Origin: a virus
Taxonomy: Duplodnaviria; Heunggongvirae; Uroviricota; Caudoviricetes
Length of the DNA: 64,000 nt
Reading direction: 5' to 3' (one strand)
Virus record (IMG/VR): IMGVR_UViG_3300033072_001087
Coordinates: 50,816-114,815 of that record
A program made the translations under genes and the position numbers. Below the pieces are notes generated by a model. It made no database searches. It worked only from the letters and a program-made list of their open reading frames with translations, and was not told where the DNA came from. Of the stretch, positions 15,282-41,080 are shown piece after piece; the first letter of the stretch is position 1; every line of letters starts with the position of its first letter.

Positions 15282-15320
15282 GACGCCGTGAGCGCAATTC
15301 GTCTCACGGCGTCTTTTATT
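15282..15320 (+). terminator. Rho-independent terminator.
   Basis: Perfect 11-bp stem gacgccgtgag/ctcacggcgtc with a 10-nt loop, followed by TTTTATTT. Confidence 0.7.
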
Positions 15321-15331
15321 TGGAGAAAAGG

Positions 15332-18231: not shown

Positions 18232-18233
18232 TC

Positions 18234-22314: not shown

Positions 22315-25300
22315 GTGGAGTTTAGAAGCGGGTATAACTTAGGCAGCGCGACCGCCGAAATTCGGGTTGATACGTCACAATTGACAACCGCGTTGTATCG
22401 CGCCCGTGACGCCGCAGACGACATTCAAGCGGCATTGACGCGTGTTGTTGCGTCGATTAACCAGCTGTACGCTGCTGGAGATACCGGCATGGCGGAATCG
22501 CTGCAAGCGCAAACCCAAGCGCTGAAGGCGATGACCGAGCAAATTAAAGCAGCGAACGCGGCCACAAAGCAAGCACAGGCGCAAGAACACAAAGAGCGCA
22601 TGGCGATGCTCGCCAATGAGTCGATGATGCTTGAGGCTGTCCACAAGCTGCAGATGGACAACATTCGAGAGGAAAGCTCGGCGTACAGTAGTCTCGCTAA
22701 AGCAATTACGTCGGCGCGGCGTCAGGCTGAAAACCGAGATAAAGTTCCGGCTTCGCTGCAGCGGGATCGCACAAACGCACAAGCCGAGTCGCGGCTTACC
22801 GCACTCAGAAATCAACTAGAGAAATACAACTCCGCTTTCATTGAAATGGCGCGTATTGAAGCGCAAATCGGGCAAACGTCAAATCAAAGAACAAAACAAA
22901 AGCTAGAGCAACAGCTTCAGGCGTACAAAGATTTTACCCAAAAGTTCGAGGCTGAAGTTCGGACGATTAACGCGCTGCGTTCGCAAATTAACAAAGATGC
23001 AGTTGGGTATGACTTATTAACCAGTAGGGAAAGAACTCGACTTAGAAAAGACATCTCTGTTGACAAAGCGGCTAGCGATATTGGGTTATCTACTGGCGAT
23101 CAAAGATTTAACACGCTAAGAGATGCGGAGTTCAAGAAGCAAGCTGCAGAACAAAAAGCAGCCATAGAGGAAATTGCAAGGATTAAGAAGGAAGCTGCCG
23201 CAGAGCGTGAGCGAATCGATACTAGTATTGCGCAAAACGCGAAAAAATCCGCTGCTGAACAACTTGCCGCTGATAAAGCTGCCGCCAAAGAGAAAGAGCG
23301 CGTTGAAAACGAGAAAGCTGCAATTAAGGCAAAAGTCCTAAAAGAAATTAGTGATTTTGAGCATTCCGCCCGCGTTGCTCAATTATCGGCGGATAAGTCC
23401 GCAGAAAAAGAAAGAGAGCGTATTGATAAAGAGCGGCTTGCAACCAGAAAGAAAGTCCTGAATGAAATAAGCGATTTTGAGGAATCTGTACGGGATGCAC
23501 AAAGACAAAAAGATGCGGAAACACGGAAGTTTCAAGGCCAAGAGTCTGTTGATAAAGATAAGCGCGCAGAGCGTTTTGTAAACACTTTACATAAAGAGCG
23601 ACAGCTACAGGACAAGGAGCAGGTTGAAAGCCAAAGAGCTATCGCCAAACTCAAAGCCGATATTGCCGCCAAATCTGCCGCTGACGCCGAAGCCGCATTG
23701 AGGAGGGAAATCGCTGCTGAGAAAGAAGCGAATAAAGAGCGCGCCGCTGCTCTCAGAAAGGCAAATGCTGACAAAAAGGCACAACTCGCGGAGGAAAAGA
23801 GACTCGCGGCTGAAAGCAAGTCTGTTGCCGAATCAAAAGTTGCTAACGCCACAAGATCCGTAGACGACGCGATGCGACGCGCTCGCGCATCCATGCGCAT
23901 GAGCGGCGAACAAATCTCGATCACGCGTTCCTACGATCGCGAATCACCGGATATTTCACAAGACACATCGCGGCTTATTCAGCTTAAAGCACGCCTGTCG
24001 GAATTGGATGCAGAAGCGATTGCGCTCAAACAACAGTTGCGCGCCGCGTTTGATGATCCGGCAACGCTCGATCAGCTCATTACCAAGATGAATGCGTTGC
24101 AAGCGGAAATCGACCAAACAACCAAAGACTCGCAACAAATGTACACCGCCATCAAGGGGCGCAACGATGCACTGATGGCGCGTAGTACTGTGTCTACCGA
24201 TTCTGATAAGCCGGTGATTGTTTCGCCGCTTGTCAAGCGTGAGGCGACGCGCGCGGCTATCGGCGAAGTCAATGCAACGATCAAGGAACTGCAGGCGCGA
24301 TTCAAAGCTGCGCGCGTCGGGCTGCCCATCACTGTCGATACGACACAGATGGAACGCTCGCTTGAAGACGCGATGGTGCCAATCCGCCAACTGCAATCCG
24401 CCTTTGCTGAACTCAAGCGTCAATTCAAAGACCTGACAAACGATCCCGAAGCACAGGGGCTTTTGATCCATCAATTTGAAGCGCTGGAAGCCGAAGCCCT
24501 ACGCCTGAAAGGGCAGATGGGTGCGCTGGATAACAGCATGGATCGCTTCGAGGCTTCGGCGCGGCGCGCAACCACCGGCGTACGGGGGTATTTCAACAAC
24601 CTACGCATCGAACTAGAGCGCATCAACCAAACATCGATCGGCGCAAATGTTCAACAGCTTGGGTATCAGTTGTTCCCGGCCGGGCTTGTCGCGACTGCGG
24701 GGGTTGCGCGTGGCGTCCAGACAGCGCAGACGCTTGAGGAAACCGAGATCGCGTTTCGCGGGATTGTCGGCGACCAAAAAGAGGCGTTGGCGCTCATGGA
24801 GTCGTTGGCGGACGAAGCGCGACGCTTTGGGCTGCCGGTTATTTCATCGGTGCCTGAATTTGCCAAGCTGCTGCCCATTGTCAGGAACTTGGGCTACGAC
24901 ATGGAGCAGTTTGTCGGTTTAGCCGCTAGACTGGCAACATTGAACCCGGCACAGGGGCTTGAAGGCGCTGTGCGCGCGATTTCGGAATTGGCGTCCGGCT
25001 CCGGTAATGACTTTGTTTCGATCGCGGAACGATTCAATATCGCGCGTTCCGCTTTGCGTCAGGCGATGGAAGAAACCGGACGCAACGTCCCTGAAGCGTT
25101 GGATCGCGTGCTGACCGCCTACGGACGCACCAACGAAGTGGCACTCGAATTTGGAGCCACCAGCCGCGCGTCGATGAACCGCGCGCGCGATGCGGTCGAT
25201 CAATTCCTTGCGGAATCGATGGAACCGCTGTTGGAAGCGTTCGTGCCGCTGTTGGAAAATGCGACCGGGTTGTTTAATGCGATTAACGAAGGCGGGGGCT

Positions 25301-27624
25301 TCCTACAGGGCTTTACTGGAATTGCGATGGCTGCAACCGCTGGCGCGGTGACACTAACCATCGCGCTGGGTCAGCTTATCATCGCGCTGGAAGCGATCAA
25401 GGCGGTCGGAACGGCGGGACTGTTATCTGCACTTGCCTCACCGGTTGGGTTGGCGATTGGCGGTGGGATTGCAGCGATCGCAGGTATTGTTGCGCTGAGT
25501 TCGGCGATTGATTCTCTAAATCAGGCGTCGCAAAATGCACTTAATCAGTCCATACGCCCGTTTGTTGACGAACTTGAACGCGCTGCTGCTCAACAACCGA
25601 CGACGACGACGGAACCCGTCGCGATGTCGGATGAGGACCGGACATTTGATTTTGGCGGCGTGGTGTCGCGTGGAAGAGAAATAGGCAGACCGCAATTTGA
25701 GGCTTTTGAACTTCCGAATGTCCCATCGCGCTTTACGCCCGAAATCTACACGCGCTTAAACGATGAAATTGAACGTCAATTCCAAATCGCAGCGCGAAAC
25801 TACGGGCGCGCATCACAATATATACGAAGCGAACAACTCGGCGTTCTTGGAAACTTTGCAACAGGGTTGAATGATCCAGCCTTGCGCGCGCAAACGAGAG
25901 GCGGCGAATTGGAGACCGCGCTTAGAGGCATGGTATTGACAGGTTCAGTAACCAGCCAATATGGACGCGGATTGATTGATTTACTAACCAGCAACGAAGA
26001 TATACCTATATCGCCAGAGCTGCTTCAAAATGTTCCGGTCGAAGAACTTCAAGCTATTTTACAAATTCTACCGGGCGTTAATCAAGAATACATCGCGCAA
26101 CTTCAGGCGACAATCGATCTGCAGCGGCAAGCAAATGAGGTTTGGGGTCAAAATGTTGACGCGGTAAATGAATCAAGAGAAGCGTTGCAAGCCGCATCAG
26201 AAGCCTATCGGCAGATAGCACAATCCGCACAGCTTCAGAGCGACGCTCTTGACGCCATTTACGCCGGTGCCGCTACGCGAGTTGGCGCAATGCTTAACGA
26301 AATACCGGGAGGCATTAGTCAAGAGACTCGCACCGGCATTTTGCAAGGGGTTTATGGCGCTAAACCGCAAGACCTTGCGGCGCTTGAAGAGGCGCTGCAA
26401 AGCTACGCCGATATGTACACCGACTTCATGCTGGACTCTATTCGCACCGCTGAAGACCGTGCGCGTTCGCAACTGCTAGAAATGGAAGACTTCTCGATTG
26501 GGCGGCTTCGTGCGCTAAATGATTTCGCGAGGGATGCACAGCGTGCGGAAGAGGATTATCAACGTTCGCGCCAACAGGCAATTGATGATTATTACGAACA
26601 AGAAGCAAAGGCGCAGGAGGAATACGAAAAGCAGGTCGCTGAAATCAATGGTAACTACGAAGAAGAGCGGCTGAAAGCGCTTGAAAATCATCTCATCGAC
26701 ATGCAGCGGATAGCGGCGGATGTCGATGAATCGATTGCGGCGCGTGATTTCCTTGCGGCGCAAAAACAGATTCGCTCGATGCGTGAACGTCAAGAGGACT
26801 TTGATCGCGAACAGGCGGAACGCAAAGAAGATCTCGATAAGCAGCTCGAAGATCTGATAGACAATCTTGAGGAACAACGCGCCGAACGCGAAAAGTCCTT
26901 CCGTGAACAGATGGCTGATACTGAGGCGCAGTACCGCCTACAGCGTCAACGCGCCGAAGAAGACTTCCGCCTATCGCTGCAGCGCGAGGACGAGGATCGC
27001 GCGCTGCGCCTACGTCGTCAGCAAGAGGAATACAATATTGTTGATCGGCGACGCGTTGAAGACTTTAATCGTCAAGTCGAACAGCTAATCGCGCACAATG
27101 AGGTCATGCGCTTTAATCAAGACTATTGGTTTGGTATTCTCGAAATGGATTATGGCGAACACATGGCGCGAATTCACGCGATGATGTCTCCAGCGGATTA
27201 TGTGGGATATGGCGGCGCAGCAGGGGGAATGGGCGGCACTGGTGGGCTGCCAGCGGATGTGTATCAAGCGCTGATTGACTTTTACAACTCCGCAGACCCG
27301 AATGCTGGCGCAGCGCGTCCGGGCGGCTGGATCCCGCAGTACGCGGATGGAGTAGACTTCATTACCAAAGAGGGGTTGGCGTACTTGCATTTTGGCGAAC
27401 GCGTGTCAAAGAGCGCAGACGGAGTTAGAGAGCGCACGGGCGTCATTGGGAACATCCCGAATATGTTTGCGCCAGTAGCGAATGTGAACGTGAAAGTGGA
27501 GTCGGGCGGGAAAATGTCGAAACGCGAAGAAATGGAATATGCGCGCAGACTCTCGAAACAGATCACGAGTGACGTGATGAATGCGTTTAACGGAGTCATT
27601 GATAATACACGGAGATCATCGTGA
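22315..27624 (+). CDS. Tape measure protein (1769 aa).
   Basis: Very long ORF at the TMP position with extensive coiled coil, internal tandem repeats, and hydrophobic Gly/Ala-rich TM-like segments (AMAATAGAVTLTIALGQLIIALEAIKAVGTAGLL). Confidence 0.85.
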   Translation: MEFRSGYNLGSATAEIRVDTSQLTTALYRARDAADDIQAALTRVVASINQLYAAGDTGMAESLQAQTQALKAMTEQIKAANAATKQAQAQEHKERMAMLANESMMLEAVHKLQMDNIREESSAYSSLAKAITSARRQAENRDKVPASLQRDRTNAQAESRLTALRNQLEKYNSAFIEMARIEAQIGQTSNQRTKQKLEQQLQAYKDFTQKFEAEVRTINALRSQINKDAVGYDLLTSRERTRLRKDISVDKAASDIGLSTGDQRFNTLRDAEFKKQAAEQKAAIEEIARIKKEAAAERERIDTSIAQNAKKSAAEQLAADKAAAKEKERVENEKAAIKAKVLKEISDFEHSARVAQLSADKSAEKERERIDKERLATRKKVLNEISDFEESVRDAQRQKDAETRKFQGQESVDKDKRAERFVNTLHKERQLQDKEQVESQRAIAKLKADIAAKSAADAEAALRREIAAEKEANKERAAALRKANADKKAQLAEEKRLAAESKSVAESKVANATRSVDDAMRRARASMRMSGEQISITRSYDRESPDISQDTSRLIQLKARLSELDAEAIALKQQLRAAFDDPATLDQLITKMNALQAEIDQTTKDSQQMYTAIKGRNDALMARSTVSTDSDKPVIVSPLVKREATRAAIGEVNATIKELQARFKAARVGLPITVDTTQMERSLEDAMVPIRQLQSAFAELKRQFKDLTNDPEAQGLLIHQFEALEAEALRLKGQMGALDNSMDRFEASARRATTGVRGYFNNLRIELERINQTSIGANVQQLGYQLFPAGLVATAGVARGVQTAQTLEETEIAFRGIVGDQKEALALMESLADEARRFGLPVISSVPEFAKLLPIVRNLGYDMEQFVGLAARLATLNPAQGLEGAVRAISELASGSGNDFVSIAERFNIARSALRQAMEETGRNVPEALDRVLTAYGRTNEVALEFGATSRASMNRARDAVDQFLAESMEPLLEAFVPLLENATGLFNAINEGGGFLQGFTGIAMAATAGAVTLTIALGQLIIALEAIKAVGTAGLLSALASPVGLAIGGGIAAIAGIVALSSAIDSLNQASQNALNQSIRPFVDELERAAAQQPTTTTEPVAMSDEDRTFDFGGVVSRGREIGRPQFEAFELPNVPSRFTPEIYTRLNDEIERQFQIAARNYGRASQYIRSEQLGVLGNFATGLNDPALRAQTRGGELETALRGMVLTGSVTSQYGRGLIDLLTSNEDIPISPELLQNVPVEELQAILQILPGVNQEYIAQLQATIDLQRQANEVWGQNVDAVNESREALQAASEAYRQIAQSAQLQSDALDAIYAGAATRVGAMLNEIPGGISQETRTGILQGVYGAKPQDLAALEEALQSYADMYTDFMLDSIRTAEDRARSQLLEMEDFSIGRLRALNDFARDAQRAEEDYQRSRQQAIDDYYEQEAKAQEEYEKQVAEINGNYEEERLKALENHLIDMQRIAADVDESIAARDFLAAQKQIRSMRERQEDFDREQAERKEDLDKQLEDLIDNLEEQRAEREKSFREQMADTEAQYRLQRQRAEEDFRLSLQREDEDRALRLRRQQEEYNIVDRRRVEDFNRQVEQLIAHNEVMRFNQDYWFGILEMDYGEHMARIHAMMSPADYVGYGGAAGGMGGTGGLPADVYQALIDFYNSADPNAGAARPGGWIPQYADGVDFITKEGLAYLHFGERVSKSADGVRERTGVIGNIPNMFAPVANVNVKVESGGKMSKREEMEYARRLSKQITSDVMNAFNGVIDNTRRSS

Positions 27625-28031
27625 GTAGTGTGCGAATTGCCAATGGACATGACAACGAAGCGAGTCTTGAGGAACTTCAGGATATTTTTTCAGGCACCGA
27701 TCCGCTGTTGTTTGCGGAATACACGGCGTATGACGCTGTTGAGACGGAATGGCACGACGCCGAAGCCGTCGAAATCGATGGTGATGGTAATCCGAAATTG
27801 ATCGGCTTGCCGTGGTGCGTCTGGAAATTCGGGCGGCTAACCGCTGCCGAAGTTGTGATGCTGAAGACGCTGGGGCCGAACGTAACCATTAATACGTATA
27901 ACAAGTCAGCAGGCGGATATACAGACTTCAACGCAGTCATGGACTATATTGAGGTTGGAGAATTGGATTGGGATATGGGCGGTTATGATGATGTCAATAT
28001 CACATTCCGCCGACTGGAAGAGATTTTCTGA
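27621..28031 (+). CDS. Putative tail protein.
   Basis: Position immediately after the TMP. No motifs. Confidence 0.35.
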   Translation: MSSVRIANGHDNEASLEELQDIFSGTDPLLFAEYTAYDAVETEWHDAEAVEIDGDGNPKLIGLPWCVWKFGRLTAAEVVMLKTLGPNVTINTYNKSAGGYTDFNAVMDYIEVGELDWDMGGYDDVNITFRRLEEIF

Positions 28032-31000
28032 TGAGCATTACAGTCTACGATCACGGATTGATACGGTCTGGCAAGCAGGTTGTTAAGCGTCGTATCTCTA
28101 TACCGACGCGCGAGTCCGTTTTCAGCGCCGTCGTAACCGGCATCGTACGCGATGATGTCAGCAATGCGATTATCGCCATCGAGTATGACACCGCAACCGG
28201 AGATTACGCCGACATTGAACCCGGCATGACATTGGATGTCGGTACGACAGCCGGGGCTTACGATGTTGGCATGGTCAGAATTAGGGGCTTTGCGACTTCC
28301 GATACCATCCTGATTGCGGAAACGGGGTTCTCTCTGCTTCCGGTTGAAGTTGGCGATCATCTGACGGCGCGCATGGAATTTCGGCTGCATCGCGTTTTGC
28401 CGCGCGGGGTAGGGGAGCGCACAGACGGCGCGACCTACACCAACGACTTCACGCTGTACATGGATTATGACGACGCCTACAGCGACCAAAATGACAGTCC
28501 GCCGCCTAAAGCCAACATCACGCGTTCCGCGACCAGTCAACTTGCGCCGAAACCGGCTGGATGGACAGATGACACGGATTATCGGCTTGTCACGGTCAGT
28601 TCGGCGAAAAGCGAAGCCTACAATGGGAAAACCATCACATCGCGGTTATGGGCGATCGGCGACTGCACGCTGGATACCGGCTACGCACTCACCGATACGA
28701 CGGTGGTGTTGAAAGTACCGGCTGGTTTTCGCTACATCAAGCTGGAAGTCACAGACAGCGATGGCAAGACCGGGTTGATGCGTTATCCCTTGTGGGCGCA
28801 TGATGATGCGTATTTGCCGCTGACAAGTTTTTCGGTGGTGAGTGACGACAGCGATACACTTGGCACCACCATGAATTTCGAGTTTTACGGAGAAGACGAC
28901 TCGGTAGACGAGTCGGTGCTGCCGCCCGGAACACTGCTTTGCTATTGGGAAGAGGCAAAATTCTTTAACACAGCGCCGCCAGATTTGTATCGCGACAGCT
29001 ATCTTGGCTGGGTGAATCGCGTCGCCACGACGCTTAAAATCGGAAAGCGCAGCACGCATCGCGTCGAAACCGCTGGTGTGGGCTGGTGGCTGAATGCGAT
29101 GGGCGGATCTTCGCTCTACATCTACGATCCGGGCGAAACACCGGACAAGTGGTATGAGATGCAGACCATTACCTGTGATAAAGTGGCCTATTTCATTCTG
29201 AAATGGTTTTCAAACGCGCTGGAGCTGTGCAATTTCTACGGCGGCTCAAACACCTATCGGAGCAAGGGCGAAGAAATCAGCATGGGAACCGTCTGGCAGC
29301 AACTTAATTACATGCTGGACGGCTATAAGGGAATTGCGGTGCCGGACTCTCTGAACGGCATTTGGGTCACGCGGCAGTATATGTACAAAAACGACGTTGA
29401 GCGCGGCATAACTGATGATGCCGCCAGCATGACGAGTGCCGATCTGGAAGGCGACACCGGCTTCGTTTGGGCGCAGAATTTTGTTCAGACGGTACAGGCA
29501 ATTGGCGGCGGATCGACCTACGACGGAACAACGCAGATGCTTTTTGCCAGCGCCGCGCCGTTAGCGCCGGGTTATGGCGCGTCGATTGATAATTCGCTTG
29601 CTGTGCGCTTGAATACGAGCGATCCGCAGTTGGAATTGAATGAGCTTACGGGACAACGCCGTGCTGAACTGGACAATCCAAATCGCGATCTCACCATCGA
29701 TACACTCTTGAACTTCGACGTGTTCGAGATGGCGTATGGCGAACCGATCGCCTTTACCTATGCGCATCCAAATATCGCCGGATTGTCGATTTTGACAAAA
29801 CTCGTCATCCGCAGCATTTCTCGTTCGCACAGCTCGGATTTCCGCGAACAACCAAAGCGGCTCTCAATCCGCGTCGATGCGGTGCCTGCGTGGACAGTTG
29901 GGGACACAAAGCCGGTTGAGGACGACAGTATTGACGATTGGGGTGGCGGTGGCGGCGATCCGCCGGTAATTGTTTTGCCACCGCCAGTCGATTGGAGCGG
30001 CGATGGGATACCGAGCGGGGCGGTTGTTCTCGCTTATTTCGGCACTGACAATTACGTGTATATCACGCGCAACTATCGCGCCACAAACCCAACGTGGTCG
30101 CGTTATGCCTTATCACTTGATGGGACGTTGATTGCGTTTGTCGTAGACGCGCGTTCGCCGTTGTATATGGGCAGCGGCACAGCAGTTCATGGCTGGATCG
30201 CTACAACGACTAAGATTTACAAGATCGAAGACATCTTCGGCGCGCGGACGCTGACGGCTTCCTTTACGTTCCGTTCCACTTCCAGTCTGCGCAGTATGGA
30301 TTTCTCGTATGGCGCAGCCAATCGCGGGCTTGTCGTAACAAATTACAACGACGGAGTCTACGAGACGCATACCAGTGATGGTAGTTCGTGGAGCAGCGAA
30401 GCATTAATCAGCGGGCATTTAGGAAACTCGAAAACGCTAGTGGCAACAGGCGGCGCACTTGGAATTGCGGTCAATCCATGCGGAACGGTCTTGTCGTATG
30501 AAGGAAGTGGGGAGTGGGTAGTTCAAGGAGAAAGCAACGGTGGCGGTTATTACAGTTTTGTTGGCGCATTAAGCGATAGTTCTTGTTTCGATTTTCAAAC
30601 GAGGGCGTGGAGTATTCCATTTGGTTTTGGAGGAGGGCATAGCTACATTAATTGCAGCGGGACACCAGTCGGTTCCGGCTCTTTTCATAACAACACATCA
30701 TTTGGTTTTATTACCAGCGGATTAATGTTCAGAATCGATTGGAACGCCTATTATCCGCCAACATTCCGAGTGCGAGTTGACGGATGGGTGGACGACGATG
30801 GCAGCGCGTATCAACCCGGCGCATTTTTGGGAAGCTCGCTTGTCGGGCTTGCCTATACGACTGCGAAAAACTCCACTGTGCAGGGCGGATACAAAGACGC
30901 ATCGGCATATGGCGCATCTTTTTCGCTTGATAGTACGGCGTGGGGGCATGGTGGTCATGCGGCAGGTGATATTTATGCAGGGTATGGTGGGGAAACGACC

Positions 31001-31435
31001 CTGTTTTATGGAGCGACTGTAAGTGGCGAAAGACGCCTGTATCGACGCAGATCGGGGATTGACTCGGACGTAAGTCCATCTTACGGTGGCACGAAATACG
31101 GACCGTGGCAATCGCGCCACCAAATCTATGTTTATCCACTTAATTCAAGCATCGTCATCTGCGTTGGCGGCAATGCCGATCAAAGCCTGTGCGGAGTCTG
31201 GGTGTCTCGAAATGAGGGTGCGACTTGGACAAACATCGTCACGCCTTCTAGTAGTAGTGACAGAATTGAACGCGCCGCATTTTCAGGTGACGATCCCGAT
31301 GTCATCTACCTGTATGGCAAAACGGGAAAGAATTATATTTCCACCGATTTTGGTGTAACATTGAAAGAGCGCACGGGGAATATTGCGCAAATGGCAAGCG
31401 TCGGAACTTTCGTCAATCTGTGCGGCGGTGCGTGA
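28031..31435 (+). CDS. Large tail/baseplate protein with BNR/Asp-box repeats (putative host-specificity protein).
   Basis: 1134 aa. Asp-box-like SRNEGATWTNI and SDGSSWSSE. Confidence 0.5.
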   Translation: MSITVYDHGLIRSGKQVVKRRISIPTRESVFSAVVTGIVRDDVSNAIIAIEYDTATGDYADIEPGMTLDVGTTAGAYDVGMVRIRGFATSDTILIAETGFSLLPVEVGDHLTARMEFRLHRVLPRGVGERTDGATYTNDFTLYMDYDDAYSDQNDSPPPKANITRSATSQLAPKPAGWTDDTDYRLVTVSSAKSEAYNGKTITSRLWAIGDCTLDTGYALTDTTVVLKVPAGFRYIKLEVTDSDGKTGLMRYPLWAHDDAYLPLTSFSVVSDDSDTLGTTMNFEFYGEDDSVDESVLPPGTLLCYWEEAKFFNTAPPDLYRDSYLGWVNRVATTLKIGKRSTHRVETAGVGWWLNAMGGSSLYIYDPGETPDKWYEMQTITCDKVAYFILKWFSNALELCNFYGGSNTYRSKGEEISMGTVWQQLNYMLDGYKGIAVPDSLNGIWVTRQYMYKNDVERGITDDAASMTSADLEGDTGFVWAQNFVQTVQAIGGGSTYDGTTQMLFASAAPLAPGYGASIDNSLAVRLNTSDPQLELNELTGQRRAELDNPNRDLTIDTLLNFDVFEMAYGEPIAFTYAHPNIAGLSILTKLVIRSISRSHSSDFREQPKRLSIRVDAVPAWTVGDTKPVEDDSIDDWGGGGGDPPVIVLPPPVDWSGDGIPSGAVVLAYFGTDNYVYITRNYRATNPTWSRYALSLDGTLIAFVVDARSPLYMGSGTAVHGWIATTTKIYKIEDIFGARTLTASFTFRSTSSLRSMDFSYGAANRGLVVTNYNDGVYETHTSDGSSWSSEALISGHLGNSKTLVATGGALGIAVNPCGTVLSYEGSGEWVVQGESNGGGYYSFVGALSDSSCFDFQTRAWSIPFGFGGGHSYINCSGTPVGSGSFHNNTSFGFITSGLMFRIDWNAYYPPTFRVRVDGWVDDDGSAYQPGAFLGSSLVGLAYTTAKNSTVQGGYKDASAYGASFSLDSTAWGHGGHAAGDIYAGYGGETTLFYGATVSGERRLYRRRSGIDSDVSPSYGGTKYGPWQSRHQIYVYPLNSSIVICVGGNADQSLCGVWVSRNEGATWTNIVTPSSSSDRIERAAFSGDDPDVIYLYGKTGKNYISTDFGVTLKERTGNIAQMASVGTFVNLCGGA

Positions 31436-32778
31436 TGAACGGGATTAAGCGTCGGTTTAGAGATAATGTAGCCTCCATTGTTAGTGGGCAAATCAAGCCC
31501 GATCCTTCAGGGATCGCACAATTGGGTTACACGATACGCGGCAAATATATGGTGGTAGACGACACCGACTCACGCTATATGTTTGCTCGGTTTATCGACG
31601 GCGGATTTGTGCGCGCGCGTCATGAGGGATTGATCGTCCCCAAGCCGGACAAGTATGTGCGCGTGGTCACAACCAATAGCATTACTTACTTAAAGCCGCT
31701 GACGAAAGAAGAGGAATTCTATTACGAAGGCGGCAACTCAACAACCGCGCAGGTCGGGATTCATTCACACAAACGCGGAACGCCTTACGAATTTGAGATC
31801 GACCCGTATTTGTTGGGCAACGGGCGAACTACGGTCTATGAAGATCTGAAGGTCAAAACGACACAAGCATGGTTTTGGGACAACGGCGCGTTCGATGGCA
31901 TGACAGAAGTTATCACCGATTTGTCCGTCTCGTTGCCCGGAGCCGCAAGTACGTGGTATTACGTGACACTTTCGATAGACCCCGCAACCAACGCGATTGA
32001 GATTGAAGAAGGCACAGAAAAATCGATTGCTATACCATTGCTTATGTCGGATATTCCCGTGCCAGATGCGGAAAACATTTGCTTATGTGCCATCAAATTG
32101 CGTTACGGCCAAACCGAGATTTACCCCGCTGACATTATTGACTTGCGCGGATCGCTGATTTCGCAAGCCATCGCGACGCTGCAGATCGGTGAAATGACCG
32201 GCGCGACATCTGGATATGACGGGGAAAGCGGCTTAGTGCCGCAGCCAGTAGCAGGGGAACAGGACAAGGCGCTGCTTGGCGATGGCACATTCGCATTTCG
32301 CCATCTGACATCTACGGCTTCAGAAACGCTCACCATTGCGTCTGGCGTGGTCACAGGTACTAGCACAGCCTCATACTTCAAAATAGCGGCTGAAAGCGGC
32401 ACGGCGGGCGATCTAGATACATTGACATTGACGGGTGCGCCGCGTCTAATCGTGCTGCAAGCGGATACAGGCGACACCATTACAGTCAAGCACAGCACGG
32501 ACAACATCGAACTGAACGGCGCTGTGGATTTTGAATTGAGCGGCGACAAGACGCTTGCGCTGTTCTGGGACGGCACGAATTTAGCGGATGTCGGCGCTGG
32601 TGGCGGTGGAGCAGGTGGCAGTTTCGCAACACTCTCTGATGTTGACGTATCAACACCGCCGACCGATGGGCAGGTGCCGGTTTGGGATGATGGCGACTCA
32701 AAATGGAAACCCGGAACAGTTTCCGGTGGCGATGAAAGCACAGCCGAAAAAGTATACGCGTATACCGTGTTTAGATAG
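31420..32778 (+). CDS. Tail fibre protein.
   Basis: 452 aa. Gly-rich C-terminal region GAGGGGAGGSFATLSDVDVSTP and a beta-rich repeat-like middle. Confidence 0.5.
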   Translation: MRRCVMNGIKRRFRDNVASIVSGQIKPDPSGIAQLGYTIRGKYMVVDDTDSRYMFARFIDGGFVRARHEGLIVPKPDKYVRVVTTNSITYLKPLTKEEEFYYEGGNSTTAQVGIHSHKRGTPYEFEIDPYLLGNGRTTVYEDLKVKTTQAWFWDNGAFDGMTEVITDLSVSLPGAASTWYYVTLSIDPATNAIEIEEGTEKSIAIPLLMSDIPVPDAENICLCAIKLRYGQTEIYPADIIDLRGSLISQAIATLQIGEMTGATSGYDGESGLVPQPVAGEQDKALLGDGTFAFRHLTSTASETLTIASGVVTGTSTASYFKIAAESGTAGDLDTLTLTGAPRLIVLQADTGDTITVKHSTDNIELNGAVDFELSGDKTLALFWDGTNLADVGAGGGGAGGSFATLSDVDVSTPPTDGQVPVWDDGDSKWKPGTVSGGDESTAEKVYAYTVFR

Positions 32779-32787
32779 GAGCTACAA

Positions 32788-33180
32788 ATGGCAGCAAGTC
32801 CAGAATTCGCAACCAATCCGGTTGTCGGAATGGCGCAGGTATCCACCGCCAATACGAACCGTGATGGAACGGGAACAGTCGTAGATGTACTGACTGGCGG
32901 CAGTAATGGGACGCTGATCAACAAGGTCAGAATTCAAGCGGTGGGAACGACGACCGCTGGCGTAATTCGTTTGTACCTGTATGATGGAACAAACACGCGA
33001 CTGATGAAAGAAATTCTTGTGACTGCGAAAACACCAAGCACGACAGTGGAAGCGTGGTCTACAACAGTCATGTTCAGCGGATATGACTTGCTTGTTTTGC
33101 CGAGCGCCTCGTGGGTCTTGAAGGCTTCTACCCACAACGCGGAAACCTTTAATATCTTCGCGGTAGGGGCTGAGCTGTGA
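32788..33180 (+). CDS. Hypothetical tail-fibre-associated protein.
   Basis: Position. Gly/Thr-rich. Confidence 0.3.
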   Translation: MAASPEFATNPVVGMAQVSTANTNRDGTGTVVDVLTGGSNGTLINKVRIQAVGTTTAGVIRLYLYDGTNTRLMKEILVTAKTPSTTVEAWSTTVMFSGYDLLVLPSASWVLKASTHNAETFNIFAVGAEL

Positions 33181-33602
33181 ACGGCGGGGTGATGGGATTT
33201 CCGAGCGGATTGGGGGGCGATATTCCAATCTCGTTCATGGCGCTCTTTTCAGGCACGCCAAACCTAAGCGCTTCAGTTCAACGGATGAACTTTCAAACCG
33301 TCATTCACGACGTTTACGGCGTCTATGACGCCGCGAATTCGCGTTTCAATGTGACACTGAGTGGTGTGTACTACATTTTCTTTAACGTCGCATCGAACAG
33401 CGGACCGGGAAAATACATTCGCTTTTATATCAATGGCGTTGATATTTTCCCAGCCATGATTGCTTTCGGCACGGTGGGAAATTTCAATCTCGGCATTTTA
33501 CACTATCTCCAAGCAGGGGATTACGTAGAGGTTTGGGGCGCTGCTGACAGCAACGCAGCAATGATCGGTTGGGGTAATTTTGGCGCGTTTATGGTGAGGT
33601 AG
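33177..33602 (+). CDS. C1q/TNF-like domain protein (putative receptor-binding tip).
   Basis: FSGT...FNVTLSGVYYIFFNVAS...YIRFYINGV...LQAGDYVEVW follows the C1q jelly-roll consensus (F.A.....G.Y.F.........L..GD.V.v). Confidence 0.45.
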   Translation: MNGGVMGFPSGLGGDIPISFMALFSGTPNLSASVQRMNFQTVIHDVYGVYDAANSRFNVTLSGVYYIFFNVASNSGPGKYIRFYINGVDIFPAMIAFGTVGNFNLGILHYLQAGDYVEVWGAADSNAAMIGWGNFGAFMVR

Positions 33603-33608
33603 CTATCT

Positions 33609-34538
33609 ATGACAGCACGGCGGCAGAACACAATCGCAATATTTTACGCATTGGCGCTCGGCGTCTTCGTCTTGATTCAGTACATCCGAATTTCACTTCC
33701 CGCTTGCACTACCTACTGTGTCGGATTGCACAACGCGATCCTCGATAACACGCTGACAAGCCCATTCGTCTACCGCGTGCTGTCACCCTTCGCGGTGAAT
33801 GTGCTGGTCGGGGGCGCGCGAGATTTCCAGACGGTTTCGATGGGCTATATCATTGCACACGCGATTGTATTCCCCGTGCTGTTTGTGCTGCTCTATCTGT
33901 GGCTACGGCGATGGTTGTCGTTGCCCGCGTCGGTCGCCGGTATCTCGATTGCGGCAGCGCTGTTCAACGTCATGTTGCCATTGTGGGCGGTCGCGCTCTA
34001 CAACGCGGTCGAAGCGGCGCTGTTGTGTGCTGCGCTCCTGCTTATCACGGATCAGCGGCGCTTGCGCTTCGGTTTGTTGTGCGCGATCACGGCACTGGCG
34101 GCACTCAATCGGGAAACATCGGTGCTGATTCCACTGGCATTCGCGGCATATACACTGCCAGTAAACCGGGATCGCCGATCATTGTTGCGATCTGCTGTGC
34201 TGTTAGGTATTTGGGGCGCGATCTTCGTCGGGATACGCATAATTCGAGGCTCCGCGCCGGACGATACTCCCATCGCGGTCGCGTGGAATATGAACACAAA
34301 CGGCGGGTGGTGGACAATCTCAGCGATTGAAAACAACCTGCCATTTATGTTCGTGTGGATTGCGGCGTTGGCATTTTACGGACGCGCTGCACCGGGGCTG
34401 AAAAGGATCGCGCTGGTAGCGCCGGTCTATGCCGGATTATTCCTAGTGTTCGCGCTTTGGAATGAGGTACGGCTCCTCTTGCCGCTACTGATTTTGCTTT
34501 TGCCAATCTCTCTGTTTCCAATCGATCAGAATCGTTAA
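33609..34538 (+). CDS. Polytopic integral membrane protein (about 8-9 TM helices). Possible GT-C-like or O-antigen-modifying enzyme.
   Basis: Hydrophobicity pattern only. Confidence 0.4.
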   Translation: MTARRQNTIAIFYALALGVFVLIQYIRISLPACTTYCVGLHNAILDNTLTSPFVYRVLSPFAVNVLVGGARDFQTVSMGYIIAHAIVFPVLFVLLYLWLRRWLSLPASVAGISIAAALFNVMLPLWAVALYNAVEAALLCAALLLITDQRRLRFGLLCAITALAALNRETSVLIPLAFAAYTLPVNRDRRSLLRSAVLLGIWGAIFVGIRIIRGSAPDDTPIAVAWNMNTNGGWWTISAIENNLPFMFVWIAALAFYGRAAPGLKRIALVAPVYAGLFLVFALWNEVRLLLPLLILLLPISLFPIDQNR

Positions 34539-39636: not shown

Positions 39637-40170
39637 ATGAAAAGGTTCATGCAGCGTTACGCCGAAGGACGCACTTGGTTCGCTTTGTTTACGCGTGATA
39701 GCGACAGCCCACAGCCCTTTGCCATTGTTGATATACGCGACTCTGCGCTCTTGCGTAACTTCTTTTCGCGTGCATTTTCGCAGTATAACCACCGACTGAT
39801 TTCAGATTCGCTGATGCACTACATTGAACAGAGTGAATGGGATCGGCAAGGCTATTTTGACGCCATTATCCGCGTCGGTCGCCGCCACCCAAGTCGATCA
39901 CAAATGTTCCTACTGTCCTATGCGGCAACCCATACGGGATGGTTTCGCTTTCCCGAAGAAATGCGCGCCGACGTTTCCACTAAGAGCCTGTTTGTCTGCA
40001 CGGAACGGGGTTGGATGGCATGGAACGATGGCAACTATCGCATTACATCGGAAGGGCGTCGCGTCCTAAGAAATGCAATCCTAGATGAACGAGATCGAGA
40101 AAAATCAAGCCGGGATAAACGCCGCGCTCGGCAAAATCGCCAACGCGGCGGCGCAGGCGACAGCACTTGA
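39637..40170 (+). CDS. Hypothetical protein with basic C-terminal tail.
   Basis: 177-aa ORF. C-terminus RDKRRARQNRQRGG. Confidence 0.35.
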   Translation: MKRFMQRYAEGRTWFALFTRDSDSPQPFAIVDIRDSALLRNFFSRAFSQYNHRLISDSLMHYIEQSEWDRQGYFDAIIRVGRRHPSRSQMFLLSYAATHTGWFRFPEEMRADVSTKSLFVCTERGWMAWNDGNYRITSEGRRVLRNAILDERDREKSSRDKRRARQNRQRGGAGDST

Positions 40171-41080
40171 CACCTACAAATTAGACCTTGCCCCAAATAC
40201 ATTGGATCGTCAACGGCGCGATTTGTCGCTCTTTGCGGATTACTTGATGGGAAAAGGGATGCGCGTCGGCGATCTGTTCAACAGCGCCGAGGCGTGGCGT
40301 GGTATTACGTGGGGATTGGTCAAGGGGTTCGGGTTGTGGATGCAGCACAAGGGATACGCGTTGGGTTCGGTTGCGGTTAGATTTGCAACCGTCAAGCGCT
40401 ATGCCGCGCTTGCTGTACAATCTGGAATAATCGACGCAAATGAGGGCGCATTGATTAAATCCTTGCGCCCCTTTACGAACACACGCAATGTCGATGCAAA
40501 ACGCGCCAGAACACGTCTGGGCGCGAAAAAAGCCCATTCTACAGACTTGACGTTAGAGCAGCGAAAAACCCTCAAAGAACGCGCCTCCTCTACCCCACAA
40601 AGCGCGTGTTACGCCCTGCTCATGTGTTTACTTCTTGATCACGGTCTTAGAGTATCGGAGGTCATTCTGCTTACTGACGCGAACGTAGACACTACCCTGT
40701 GGACTCTCAGTTTCTATCGTCCAAAGGTTGATCGTCACGATATTCACCGCATGACGCAAGACACAATCCATGCTTACTTAGCCTACAAACCGTTTATAAT
40801 AGAAGGCGAGAAGCTGCTGCGTCAATCAGAACGCGGCGGCGCATTAGGCAAGCCCGGATTAACGCGTGGCGGCGTCGAACAAATCGTCAAACGACTTGGG
40901 AAAAACATCGGGGTCCCATCGCTCTCGCCCCATGATTGTCGGCATTCTTGGGCAACAGAATACGAGAAGAAACACACGCCGTTTGAACTGCGCGACGCAG
41001 GGGGCTGGAACAGCTTGGATATGCCAAATCGCTATGTCAACCGAAAACGAATCAGCAATCAAGGAGAGGACTTGGAATAA
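40085..41080 (+). CDS. Tyrosine recombinase / phage integrase.
   Basis: C-terminal catalytic region HDCRHSWATEY...GGWNSLDMPNRYV (R..H..R..Y). N-terminal SAM-like core-binding region. The true start may be downstream of 40085. Confidence 0.8.
   Translation: MNEIEKNQAGINAALGKIANAAAQATALDTYKLDLAPNTLDRQRRDLSLFADYLMGKGMRVGDLFNSAEAWRGITWGLVKGFGLWMQHKGYALGSVAVRFATVKRYAALAVQSGIIDANEGALIKSLRPFTNTRNVDAKRARTRLGAKKAHSTDLTLEQRKTLKERASSTPQSACYALLMCLLLDHGLRVSEVILLTDANVDTTLWTLSFYRPKVDRHDIHRMTQDTIHAYLAYKPFIIEGEKLLRQSERGGALGKPGLTRGGVEQIVKRLGKNIGVPSLSPHDCRHSWATEYEKKHTPFELRDAGGWNSLDMPNRYVNRKRISNQGEDLE

What the first reader, a model, noticed from the sequence alone, without database searches (positions are those of the whole stretch)
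33177..33602. C1q/TNF-like jelly-roll protein at the tail-fibre locus
The sequence follows the C1q consensus closely (aromatic ladder, SGVYYIFFNVAS, LQAGDYVEVW). A bacterial/phage C1q-like domain would be a trimeric receptor-binding tip.
Basis: partly seen in the sequence, partly recalled or inferred. Interest (0 to 1): 0.5.

Follow-up and report, generated by a model that had tools for sequence, protein, structure and literature searches.

The report
Small C1q-fold phage tail-tip protein
A 141-residue phage protein really does have the C1q/TNF jelly-roll fold and sits in the slot where related phages keep their swappable host-recognition module; the fold is already well known in phages, but the short docking peptide and conserved partner protein next to it are not described.

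Summary
ORF 33177-33602(+) encodes 141 aa containing both quoted motifs. It passes Pfam's C1q gathering cut-off (27.8 vs 23.7 bits). Its AlphaFold2 model (pLDDT 90.7) superposes on gC1q heads (TM about 0.8, rmsd 1.6-1.8 A).

The window is a siphovirus-type phage with an integrase. The gene order is tape measure, 136 aa, 1134 aa, 452-aa fibre, 130 aa, then this ORF.

C1q-domain proteins beside phage tail fibres are already published as putative receptor-binding proteins, and BFVD holds 514 viral structural matches. The finding is therefore correct but a new member of a known kind.

The context is the new part:
- The upstream 130-aa gene belongs to a large family with no Pfam or PHROG match (1691 clusters). 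It forms a conserved island between hypervariable genes.
- The 119 unique genes following it fall into 59 unrelated groups (lectins, CBMs, pectate lyases, propellers, collagen, C1q).
- 66% of them share an N-terminal peptide, M-N-x-G-[ILV]-x-G-[FYW]-P; here it reads MNGGVMGFP. This fixes the true start at GTG 33177.
- Upstream fibres share conserved C-terminal peptides.

I infer a minimal exchangeable receptor-binding head docked through its N-terminal peptide. Trimer formation, docking and receptor binding are untested.

The parts
33177..33602 (+). Complete ORF (141 aa plus stop): an N-terminal anchor peptide followed by one gC1q-type jelly-roll domain. The GTG start overlaps the TGA stop of the preceding gene (GTGA).
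   Evidence: ORF and sequence; Pfam C1q above its gathering cut-off; structure model and fold match.
33177..33221 (+). N-terminal anchor peptide MNGGVMGFPSGLGGD (aa 1-15), matching the motif M-N-x-G-[ILV]-x-G-[FYW]-P shared by otherwise unrelated proteins in this slot. Low-confidence and unstructured in the model.
   Evidence: motif in 79/119 slot proteins; window scores 14.9 against a background 99th percentile of 4.9; only weak, sub-window-score matches in any other ORF of the loci; synonymous codon variation, so selection is at protein level; first 10 modelled residues have pLDDT 59.
33231..33599 (+). gC1q/TNF-type 10-strand jelly-roll domain (aa 19-141), containing SGVYYIFFNVAS (aa 62-73) and LQAGDYVEVW (aa 111-120).
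32788..33180 (+). Conserved 130-aa protein translationally coupled to the C1q ORF. It belongs to a large family with no Pfam, PHROG or NCBIfam match, is predicted to be a jelly-roll beta-sandwich, and is the proposed connector or docking partner.
   Evidence: no family hit; 1691 clusters, 50-66% identity among the best 120 listed; 20 invariant columns; pLDDT 90.6; only weak fold neighbours; conserved island between variable genes.
31420..32778 (+). 452-aa fibre-like protein (public gene calls start at ATG 31435, giving 447 aa). Its C-terminal region matches phage minor-tail and fibre-connector families.
   Evidence: phrog_4120, 1736, 1565, 677 at aa 389-437; Phage_depo_C, weak; aa 168-257 resemble L003 fibre P0005 aa 165-256, E 6e-4; fibre-type domains in the equivalent genes of relatives.
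32749..32775 (+). C-terminal peptide KVYAYTVFR of the 452-aa protein, of class 1 ([YF]-x-[WYF]-x-x-[FYL]-[RNH] at the C-terminus) shared by otherwise unrelated upstream fibre proteins.
   Evidence: 48/90 upstream proteins carry one of two C-terminal motif classes, against 7/4665 background ORFs.
28031..31435 (+). 1134-aa protein in the tail-tip or host-specificity position, homologous to the 1019-aa protein that precedes the C1q-tipped fibre in L003.
   Evidence: blastp 1.9e-15 over about 800 aa, plus 1.3e-10 at the C-terminus; weak Sortilin/BNR-like C-terminus.
22315..27624 (+). 1769-aa tape measure protein, which marks the tail module upstream.
   Evidence: phrog_28 tape measure protein, E 3.1e-5; gene order.

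Best explanation
The ORF encodes a minimal, exchangeable host-recognition subunit of a phage tail. It consists of a roughly 15-residue N-terminal anchor peptide (MNGGVMGFPSGLGG) followed directly by a single gC1q/TNF-type jelly-roll head, with no stalk. By analogy with all solved gC1q heads it most likely forms a trimer whose loops bind a host surface glycan or protein. It is translated together with the preceding 130-aa gene. I propose it is held on the tail fibre complex by its anchor peptide, most probably docked on the 130-aa jelly-roll protein, which would also receive the conserved C-terminal peptide of the 452-aa proximal fibre. Shown here: the ORF, C1q family membership by sequence, the predicted fold, the position in the tail module, the hypervariability of the slot, the conserved terminal peptides, and the fusion of a homologous C1q domain to a fibre in a related phage. 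Inferred: trimer formation, virion incorporation, docking on the 130-aa protein, and receptor binding.
For: Family and fold: Pfam C1q above its gathering cut-off; PDB sequence hits to C1q heads; AF2 pLDDT 90.7; Foldseek TM about 0.8 to gC1q heads and to the phage phi812 central-spike knob. Tail location: terminase, portal, capsid and tape measure lie upstream, followed by 136-aa, 1134-aa, 452-aa, 130-aa and 141-aa genes. No convincing terminator was found around the gene, and only 6 nt separate it from the next ORF. Fusion evidence: in L003 the homologue of the 1134-aa protein (E 2e-15) is followed by a 434-aa fibre whose last 120 aa are 32% identical to this ORF (E 1e-17); its middle weakly matches the window's 452-aa protein. 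Slot behaviour: in 134 loci a gene follows the 130-aa gene, 83 of them at offset -3 or 0 nt. The 119 unique products form 59 BLAST-unrelated groups. Their domains are typical of receptor-binding or depolymerase proteins: Gly_rich_2 in 36, ConA-like lectin, pectate lyase, GH5, beta-propellers, collagen, discoidin, CBM_4_9. For pairs of loci whose 130-aa proteins are 55-65% identical, only 2% have related downstream genes. A second, only 20% identical, C1q protein occupies the same slot in L137. Anchor: the N-terminal motif occurs in 79/119 slot proteins across 34 of 60 unrelated groups; no other ORF of the loci comes near the window's score (two reach 9.3 and 10.5, against 14.9 here), and synonymous codon variation points to protein-level selection. 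The cultured Pseudanabaena phage Pam2 has the same layout: an annotated tail fiber, a 126-aa family member, then gp54 starting (M)NFGTQGFPQGLG. Upstream fibres share C-terminal peptides that co-vary with columns of the 130-aa alignment. Precedents: C1q-domain proteins next to tail fibres are proposed receptor-binding proteins (PMC3909814, PMC7468147). The N-terminal leader peptide of the C1q-headed BclA-type proteins docks in clefts of the trimeric jelly-roll ExsF (PMC12357932).
Against: There is no direct evidence that the protein is in the virion. In Pam2 the homologous ORFs 53-56 are not flagged as detected by virion mass spectrometry. Trimer formation and docking could not be modelled with the tools available. 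The fold of the 130-aa model is only weakly similar to ExsF (TM 0.36) or to any solved protein, so the docking analogy is conceptual only. The conserved termini could instead reflect a co-inherited block around the 130-aa gene. C1q modules also occur at other virion positions: between capsid and adaptor genes in L002, and at the major-tail-protein position in L004. So the fold does not by itself imply a fibre tip. The L137 C1q protein lacks the anchor motif. The enrichment controls use crude six-frame ORFs as background.
Confidence: 0.6

Rival explanations
1. The protein is on the virion and C1q-like, but it is an accessory adhesin or decoration that binds environmental or secondary glycans, not the primary receptor-binding protein. 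Primary specificity would lie in the 452-aa or 1134-aa proteins.
For: C1q modules occur at non-tip positions in other phages: a stand-alone 140-aa protein between the capsid and adaptor genes (L002) and a 347-aa protein at the major-tail-protein position (L004). The upstream fibre genes are just as hypervariable as the downstream slot (3% related at 55-65% identity of the 130-aa protein) and also carry lectin or depolymerase domains. The 1134-aa protein has a BNR/sortilin-like C-terminus.
Against: The slot immediately follows the fibre gene and holds classic receptor-binding and depolymerase modules in relatives. In L003 the C1q domain is the distal end of the only fibre gene after the large tail protein.
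Confidence: 0.2
2. The conserved N- and C-terminal peptides are not docking elements. They are the edges of a block that is inherited together with the 130-aa gene, and the C1q protein attaches elsewhere, for example directly to the tip of the 452-aa fibre or to the baseplate. The 130-aa protein would have an unrelated structural or chaperone role.
For: The peptides lie within a few nucleotides of the 130-aa gene, so breakpoints just inside the flanking genes would produce the same pattern. Co-variation between C-terminal class and columns of the 130-aa alignment is equally expected from linkage. The 130-aa model has no convincing structural homologue that binds peptides.
Against: The 130-aa proteins are only about 35-66% identical, too diverged for the flanks to be kept by DNA homology. 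The motif codons vary synonymously (AAC 32, AAT 26, all four Gly codons), which indicates protein-level selection. The motif persists across 34 unrelated protein groups.
Confidence: 0.25
3. The protein is a fibre assembly chaperone or tip cap (like Tfa or T4 gp38) needed to fold the 452-aa fibre, and is not itself a determinant of specificity.
For: It is a small gene directly downstream of a fibre gene, which is the usual position of tail fibre assembly proteins (general knowledge of lambda Tfa, Mu U and T4 gp38).
Against: No Pfam or PHROG chaperone family matches it. The fold is that of a ligand-binding head. Proteins in this slot reach 1127 aa and carry lectin, CBM and enzyme domains, unlike chaperones. 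If anything, the conserved 130-aa gene is the better chaperone candidate.
Confidence: 0.07
4. The protein is not part of the virion. It would be a moron or lysogenic-conversion lectin expressed from the prophage.
For: The phage carries an integrase. The next gene is a 309-aa multi-pass membrane protein with a higher GC3 that looks like a moron. The Pam2 homologues were not detected by virion mass spectrometry.
Against: The start codon overlaps the stop of a conserved tail-module gene, and this arrangement holds in more than 100 loci. There is no signal peptide-like N-terminus; instead there is the conserved anchor motif. Its base composition matches the neighbouring structural genes.
Confidence: 0.05

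Closest known systems
C1q-domain-containing putative receptor-binding proteins of uncultured marine pelagiphages and cyanophages, and of cryoconite Mu-like phages (Mizuno et al. 2014, PMC3909814; Bellas et al. 2020, PMC7468147)
   Same: A C1q globular-head domain is encoded next to or just downstream of the tail fibre gene. It is highly variable between related phages and is inferred to recognise the host. The BFVD fold search returns many such 'C1q domain containing proteins' at TM 0.78-0.86.
   Different: The published examples carry the C1q domain at the C-terminus of longer proteins, for example a 1.7-kb gene. Here the protein is essentially the head alone plus a 15-residue peptide. The best relative is only 41% identical. 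The association with the 130-aa family and the anchor motif is not described in those papers.
Bacillus exosporium BclA / F-Anchor with ExsF (PMC12357932; PDB 9H3D)
   Same: BclA is a C1q/TNF-superfamily-headed protein attached by a short N-terminal leader peptide, and the homologous F-Anchor peptide was crystallised docked in clefts of the small trimeric jelly-roll ExsF. ExsF appears among the weak fold neighbours of the 130-aa model. The window ORF also hits Pfam BclA_C at 25.1 bits.
   Different: BclA has a long collagen stalk between peptide and head, and this ORF has none. BclA_C is below its gathering cut-off (38 bits). The 130-aa model matches ExsF only at TM 0.36, and the peptide sequences are unrelated. 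This is an analogy of mechanism, not homology.
Metazoan gC1q heads (C1QL1/C1QL3, cerebellin, C1q A/B/C, adiponectin, collagen VIII/X NC1)
   Same: The same Pfam family and the same 10-strand jelly-roll, with TM 0.79-0.83 and rmsd 1.6-1.8 A. The conserved G-x-Y, N-G and G-D-Y blocks are shared.
   Different: Identity is 16-22%. There is no collagen-like or coiled-coil stalk, and the protein is viral. Trimer formation and the apical Ca2+ site were not tested.
Knob of the central spike protein of Staphylococcus phage phi812 (PDB 9eul), and C1q-like tips of annotated phage tail fibres (Bacillus phage Sam46 RBP, Klebsiella phage Eowyn, Xanthomonas phage RiverRider, actinophage minor tail proteins)
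   Same: These are C1q-like jelly-rolls at the distal end of phage host-recognition proteins (TMq 0.79 to 9eul; TMq 0.79-0.84 to the BFVD entries). PHROG minor-tail families 737 and 746 match this ORF at their C-termini.
   Different: In all of them the domain is covalently part of a protein of 360-1170 aa. Here it is a separate gene product.
RcGTA-type baseplate with the DUF2793 tail fibre Rcc00171 (PMC5026251, PMC8265664)
   Same: In locus L007 the 130-aa family sits at the end of an RcGTA-like cluster: a g15-like 1346-aa protein, a 138-aa DUF2793 protein, the 127-aa family member, then a 397-aa variable protein. DUF2793 is the conserved N-terminal domain of the RcGTA tail fibre (Rcc00171), whose variable C-terminus carries the receptor-binding site.
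   Different: The window's 452-aa protein has no detectable DUF2793. Its tail-tip genes are not detectably GTA-like, and the papers read here do not mention the 130-aa family.
Separate tip adhesins of T-even phages (gp38 of T2/S16 type); comparison from my own knowledge, not tested here
   Same: A small, separately encoded, highly variable protein binds the distal end of a fibre and determines host range.
   Different: The fold and sequence are unrelated, and there is no evidence here for a chaperone function.

Membership tests
C1q domain (Pfam PF00386; C1q/TNF superfamily) | Sequence match to the family HMM at or above the curated gathering score | tested here: met
   27.8 bits against a cut-off of 23.7, E 3.1e-6, aa 20-123 on model positions 2-105 of 127. 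Independent phmmer hits to C1q heads in the PDB, best 3.3e-8.
C1q domain (Pfam PF00386; C1q/TNF superfamily) | Compact 10-strand jelly-roll beta-sandwich that superposes on solved gC1q heads | tested here: met
   The AF2 model has pLDDT 90.7 and 10 strands. Foldseek against the PDB gives prob 1.0, TM 0.79-0.83 and rmsd 1.6-1.8 A to C1QL3 and C1QL1, with 287 PDB matches at E<=1e-3. This is a prediction, not a solved structure.
C1q domain (Pfam PF00386; C1q/TNF superfamily) | Conserved signature residues (G-x-Y in the central strand, N-G, G-D-Y/x-V) | tested here: met
   The near-invariant columns in 62 relatives fall on G63, Y65, N86, G87, D115 and Y116 of this protein (converted from 136-aa numbering).
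C1q domain (Pfam PF00386; C1q/TNF superfamily) | Assembly into a trimer about a three-fold axis | not testable with these tools
   Only single-chain prediction was available.
Classical C1q-family protein architecture (collagen-like stalk plus C-terminal gC1q head) | An N-terminal collagen G-X-Y repeat or other trimeric stalk preceding the head | tested here: not met
   Only about 18 residues precede the first strand, and Pfam finds no Collagen hit. The protein has the domain but not the classical architecture.
BclA C-terminal domain (PF18573) | HMM score at or above the gathering cut-off | tested here: not met
   25.1 bits against 38.
TNF family (PF00229) | HMM score at or above the gathering cut-off | tested here: not met
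   13.2 bits against 23, with no domain passing on its own.
Phage C1q-domain putative receptor-binding proteins (as in PMC3909814 and PMC7468147) | Encoded adjacent to or downstream of the tail fibre gene in the tail module | tested here: met
   The gene order is tape measure, 136, 1134, 452 (fibre-like), 130, then 141 aa. Fibre-type domains occur in the equivalent upstream genes of relatives.
Phage C1q-domain putative receptor-binding proteins (as in PMC3909814 and PMC7468147) | Hypervariability between related phages | tested here: met
   No relative above 41% identity was found among 1.84 billion representatives of about 15 billion proteins. The slot holds 59 unrelated groups among 119 unique proteins, next to a conserved neighbour. 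No read-recruitment test was done.
Phage C1q-domain putative receptor-binding proteins (as in PMC3909814 and PMC7468147) | Demonstrated binding to a host receptor | not testable with these tools
   This needs experiments. It is also untested for the published examples read here.
Variable tail proteins coupled to the 130-aa family (group defined here) | Start codon within a few nucleotides of the stop of a 130-aa family gene, on the same strand | tested here: met
   The offset is -3 nt (GTGA overlap). Across the 134 loci with a called downstream gene the offset is -3 in 37 and 0 in 46.
Variable tail proteins coupled to the 130-aa family (group defined here) | N-terminal motif M-N-x-G-[ILV]-x-G-[FYW]-P | tested here: met
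   MNGGVMGFP has a PSSM score of 14.9, against a background 99th percentile of 4.9.
Tail fibre assembly chaperones (Tfa / gp38-like) | Match to a known chaperone family | tested here: not met
   Neither Pfam nor PHROGs gave such a hit at permissive E-values.
Diversity-generating retroelement target gene | A template repeat elsewhere that matches a variable region of the gene | tested here: not met
   A sensitive blastn of the gene against the 64-kb window found only chance matches of 21 nt or less.

The most novel reading that the evidence does not exclude
The conserved 130-aa jelly-roll protein may be a general 'junction box' of phage tails. It would non-covalently join a proximal fibre, through that fibre's conserved C-terminal peptide (...YLWSNFR or ...PDYxxQxxGII), to a freely exchangeable distal receptor-binding protein, through the N-terminal peptide MNxG[ILV]xGFP. 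The C1q ORF would be the smallest cargo seen so far, a bare head plus plug. This would be a plug-and-play host-range system found in phages, prophages and an RcGTA-like cluster. The contigs are assigned to many bacterial phyla, although isolate-genome evidence covers only Alpha- and Betaproteobacteria plus one cyanophage. The family has no Pfam, PHROG or NCBIfam match, and I found no description of it in the papers read.
Probability: 0.4. Interest if true: 0.65.

Novelty: new member of a known kind. Interest (0 to 1): 0.4.

Why it matters
The C1q assignment adds one more, very divergent, member to an already recognised class of phage host-recognition domains, so on its own it is ordinary.

The context may matter more. 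If the 9-residue N-terminal plug and the conserved 130-aa partner really mediate attachment, they define a simple portable rule for hanging arbitrary binding domains on a phage tail. At least 59 unrelated modules already use it in nature. That would help in predicting which gene sets host range in thousands of uncultured phages, and in engineering host range by swapping one small gene.

The analysis also corrects the start codon used in public gene calls for this protein.

Tried and rejected
- Close homologues of the C1q ORF. The word-indexed search found only the protein itself. tblastn of cultured phages gave nothing significant, best E 0.09. The IMG/VR pattern scan found nothing. The exhaustive HMMER search found only distant C1q/BclA_C proteins at 41% identity or less. 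Conservation or dN/dS of the ORF itself could therefore not be assessed.
- DGR-type diversification: no template-like repeat of the gene exists in the window.
- Programmed frameshift fusion of the 130-aa and 141-aa ORFs. This is considered unlikely and was not examined in detail. The junction is an ordinary GTGA or ATGA overlap, or an abutting stop and start, in most loci, and the downstream proteins keep their own conserved Met-Asn start.
- A second copy of the pair in phage Pam2 (ORF2 of 126 aa plus the MS-positive ORF3): ORF2 does not match the family HMM.
- PDB sequence searches with the 452-aa and 1134-aa proteins gave only chance-level hits.
- Natural fusions of the 130-aa domain to its neighbours. 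Longer ORFs containing the domain exist, for example 526 aa in L130 and 273-300 aa in L077 and L052. I did not verify that they are real fusions rather than artefacts of my longest-ORF calling, so they are not used as evidence.
- Hierarchical clustering of the 130-aa proteins did not separate the two C-terminal peptide classes. Only individual alignment columns co-vary, which cannot be distinguished from linkage.
- Recent horizontal acquisition: the ORF's GC and GC3 match its neighbours.
Full report
**Observation**

The window carries an ORF at 33177-33602 (+) with a GTG start and 141 codons. SGVYYIFFNVAS is aa 62-73 and LQAGDYVEVW is aa 111-120. The GTG overlaps the TGA stop of the preceding 130-aa ORF (GTGA). 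Public gene calls for the identical sequence start five codons later, at ATG 33192. They come from a 114.8-kb JGI contig and a 64-kb Logan contig (P0001, 136 aa).

**Is it C1q-like?**

- Pfam C1q (PF00386) matches aa 20-123 at 27.8 bits, above the curated cut-off of 23.7 (E 3.1e-6).
- BclA_C (25.1 vs 38 bits) and TNF (13.2 vs 23 bits) stay below their cut-offs.
- phmmer against PDB sequences finds single-chain C1q (5hkj, E 3.3e-8), C1QL1 and the C1q C chain.
- An exhaustive HMMER scan of 1.84 billion representative proteins returns at least 150 relatives at E<=1e-3. All those examined are environmental C1q/BclA_C proteins, and none is above 41% identical.
- With an alignment of 62 of them (A1), AlphaFold2 gives a confident 10-strand beta-sandwich (pLDDT 90.7, pTM 0.84). 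Only the first ten residues are uncertain.
- Foldseek places the model on gC1q heads: C1QL3, C1QL1, cerebellin, C1q and collagen X NC1 (prob 1.0, TM 0.79-0.83, rmsd 1.6-1.8 A). It also matches the knob of the phage phi812 central spike.

Sequence identity to solved heads is only 16-22%, so 'follows the consensus closely' is generous. The two quoted strings are nevertheless the family's best-conserved blocks.

**Context**

The window is a phage. The large terminase is at 7588-8973, the portal at 8954-10375, the major capsid protein at 15320-16837 and a 1769-aa tape measure at 22315-27624. These are followed by ORFs of 136, 1134, 452, 130 and 141 aa, all on the + strand and tightly packed. An integrase lies at 40085-41080. 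The C-terminus of the 452-aa protein matches PHROG minor-tail and fibre-connector families.

**A related phage supplies a fusion link (L003)**

In L003 the homologue of the 1134-aa protein (blastp 1.9e-15) is followed by a single 434-aa fibre gene (P0005). Its last 120 residues are 32% identical to the window ORF (E 1e-17). Its middle weakly resembles the window's 452-aa protein (E 6e-4). So in L003 the C1q head is the distal domain of the fibre, whereas here it is a separate gene product.

**The neighbour is the surprise**

The 130-aa ORF (32788-33180) has no Pfam, PHROG or NCBIfam match. Yet it has 1691 homologous clusters; the 120 best listed are 45-66% identical and mostly 126-132 aa long, and a 28-sequence alignment has 20 invariant columns. 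Its model is also a confident jelly-roll (pLDDT 90.6). Its structural neighbours are only weak, at TM about 0.45-0.6: the phage KHP40 cement trimer, the STMV capsid, the TNF-like Bc2L-C lectin and ExsF.

I fetched 143 loci with this family, 80 of 409 IMG/VR hits and 63 from GTDB genomes. The GTDB genomes include isolates of Pannonibacter, Caulobacter, Ramlibacter and Acidovorax. In one MAG (L007) the family sits at the end of an RcGTA-like cluster, after a g15-like protein and a DUF2793 fibre stub. DUF2793 is the conserved N-terminal domain of the RcGTA tail fibre, whose C-terminus carries the receptor-binding site.

**The slot after the 130-aa gene**

- In 134 loci a gene follows on the same strand, at offset -3 nt in 37 loci and 0 nt in 46.
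- The 119 unique products range from 112 to 1127 aa and form 59 BLAST-unrelated groups, 42 of them singletons.
- For pairs of loci whose 130-aa proteins are 55-65% identical, only 2% have related downstream genes and 3% related upstream genes. The 130-aa gene is thus a conserved island between two hypervariable genes.
- Pfam domains in the downstream set include Gly_rich_2 (36 members), ConA-like lectin, pectate lyase, GH5 cellulase, beta-propellers, collagen, discoidin, CBM_4_9, DUF285 and one C1q. This repertoire is typical of receptor-binding and depolymerase proteins.
- Upstream genes carry collagen repeats, tail-collar fibre N-terminus, DUF2793, Mtd_N, beta-helix and phage tail repeats, so they are fibre-type.
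- With a C1q HMM, only the window (plus its duplicate L001) and L137 have a C1q protein in the slot. The L137 protein is just 20% identical. C1q is therefore a rare cargo, and the 20% identity would fit independent acquisition, although very deep divergence cannot be excluded.

**Conserved terminal peptides**

Despite being unrelated, the downstream proteins share an N-terminal peptide, M-N-x-G-[ILV]-x-G-[FYW]-P.

- N-x-G lies within the first six residues in 71 of 119, against 23 of 4663 background ORFs.
- A stricter core occurs in 24 of 119, against 0 of 4663.
- A PSSM finds the motif in 79 of 119 at a 1% background threshold.
- No other ORF of at least 100 aa in these loci scores close to the window: the only two above 9 reach 10.5 and 9.3, against 14.9 here.
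- The motif spans 34 of 60 unrelated groups.
- Its codons vary synonymously (AAC 32, AAT 26, all four Gly codons), and GTG starts occur in 15 of 58.

The window ORF reads MNGGVMGFPSGLGG and scores 14.9, but only if translation starts at GTG 33177. That settles the start codon.

The upstream fibre proteins likewise end in one of two conserved peptides. One is ...[YF]-x-[WYF]-x-x-[FYL]-[RNH], and the window's 452-aa protein ends KVYAYTVFR. The other is ...PD[FY]-x-x-Q-x-x-G-[IV]-[IV]. Together they occur in 48 of 90 upstream proteins, against 7 of 4665 background ORFs. Some columns of the 130-aa alignment co-vary with the class, with MI up to 0.8 bit.

The only cultured carrier in INPHARED is Pseudanabaena phage Pam2. 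It shows the same layout: an annotated tail fiber (gp56), a 126-aa family member (gp55), then gp54 starting (M)NFGTQGFPQGLG. Its published virion mass spectrometry does not flag ORFs 53-56.

**Mechanism proposed**

The ORF is a minimal exchangeable host-recognition subunit made of a plug peptide and a gC1q head. It presumably forms a trimer, as all solved gC1q heads do. It would be held on the fibre complex through the plug.

The most economical partner is the 130-aa jelly-roll, which would also bind the C-terminal peptide of the proximal fibre. A structural precedent exists in Bacillus. The N-terminal leader of the C1q-headed BclA, and of F-Anchor, docks into clefts of the trimeric jelly-roll ExsF (PMC12357932).

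All of this docking scheme is inference. Multimer modelling was not available, and linkage around the 130-aa gene could explain part of the pattern.

**Comparison with what is known, and novelty**

C1q-domain proteins next to tail fibres were reported as likely receptor-binding proteins and as hypervariable 'metaviromic island' genes in marine pelagiphages (PMC3909814). They were also reported in cryoconite phages (PMC7468147) and on eCIS fibres (PMC12923769).

BFVD contains 514 viral structures matching this model at E<=1e-3. They include small stand-alone proteins of 135-184 aa and annotated tail fibres of Bacillus, Klebsiella and Xanthomonas phages, plus actinophage minor tail proteins.

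The C1q finding is thus a new, very divergent member of a known kind. The conserved 130-aa partner with its two terminal-peptide motifs is, as far as the libraries and papers searched here show, undescribed. It is the most interesting lead.

**Caveats**

- My gene calls in the fetched loci use a simple longest-ORF rule, so some starts are wrong and some 'motif-less' cases are artefacts.
- The background set contains many spurious ORFs.
- MAG taxonomic assignments of phage-like contigs are unreliable.
- C1q modules also occur at other virion positions: between the capsid and adaptor genes in L002, and at the major-tail-protein position in L004. An accessory adhesin role therefore remains possible.

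Noticed in passing
window 32788-33180 (+); loci L005-L152: The 130-aa ORF upstream of the C1q gene belongs to a large, well-conserved family (1691 clusters; 409 IMG/VR contigs; invariant ANTNRDGTGT and STHNAE blocks) with no Pfam, PHROG or NCBIfam model. It is predicted to be a jelly-roll and always sits between two hypervariable tail genes.
   Followed up: yes
window 32749-32775 (+) and the equivalent upstream genes in L005-L152: Otherwise unrelated upstream fibre proteins end in one of two conserved C-terminal peptides, ...YLWSNFR-like or ...PDYxxQxxGII-like. They occur in 48/90 upstream proteins against 7/4665 background ORFs. The window's 452-aa protein ends KVYAYTVFR.
   Followed up: partly
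window 33177 vs 33192: Public gene calls (JGI and Logan) start this protein at ATG 33192, giving 136 aa. The conserved MNxG[ILV]xGFP motif shows that the GTG at 33177, overlapping the upstream stop, is the real start.
   Followed up: yes
window 10923-15063 and 18156-19247 (+): A sugar-modification cassette lies inside the head morphogenesis module, between portal and capsid genes. It comprises a GT4 glycosyltransferase, an ATP-grasp enzyme, an NAD-dependent epimerase/dehydratase and a DegT/DnrJ/EryC1 aminotransferase (E 1e-96), plus a second GT1 after the capsid gene. It may glycosylate the virion or modify host glycans.
   Followed up: no
window 33609-34538 (+): A 309-aa multi-pass membrane protein starts 6 nt after the C1q ORF. 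It has a weak match to an NCBIfam 'cell surface glycopolymer formation' family (E 7.7e-5) and a higher GC3 (0.66) than its neighbours. It could be a lysogenic-conversion or superinfection-exclusion gene next to the receptor-binding gene.
   Followed up: no
L137 7365-7856 (Acidobacteria MAG contig): A second small C1q-like protein (163 aa) sits directly after a 130-aa family gene. It is only 20% identical to the window's protein and lacks the anchor motif, which would fit a separate acquisition of the fold in the same slot, although deep divergence cannot be excluded.
   Followed up: partly
L002 10001-10423; L004 10001-11044: C1q modules occur at other virion positions. One is a stand-alone 140-aa C1q protein between the SU10-type capsid and adaptor genes of a podophage. 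The other is a 347-aa protein with a C-terminal C1q domain just upstream of two small ORFs and the tape measure, which is the major-tail-protein position judged from gene order only.
   Followed up: no
L107, L108, L113, L114, L130 (Pannonibacter sp. SL95): One isolate genome carries five copies of the 130-aa family, each with its own downstream variable gene starting MANFGLNGFPRG. In L130 the domain appears to continue into a 526-aa ORF, which may be a fusion or an ORF-calling artefact.
   Followed up: no
L007 (= L090), uncultured alphaproteobacterial MAG, 387-kb contig: An RcGTA-like cluster (TAC_6, DUF2460, BR0599, g15-like 1346 aa) is followed by a 138-aa DUF2793-only protein, a 127-aa family member and a 397-aa variable protein. 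This suggests that some GTA-like elements use the same three-gene fibre arrangement.
   Followed up: partly
window 22315-27624 (+): The tape measure protein is 1769 aa, which implies an unusually long tail. The small 136-aa gene after it (27621-28031) has no family match but has a size-matched counterpart in L003 (144 aa) and L005 (141 aa).
   Followed up: no
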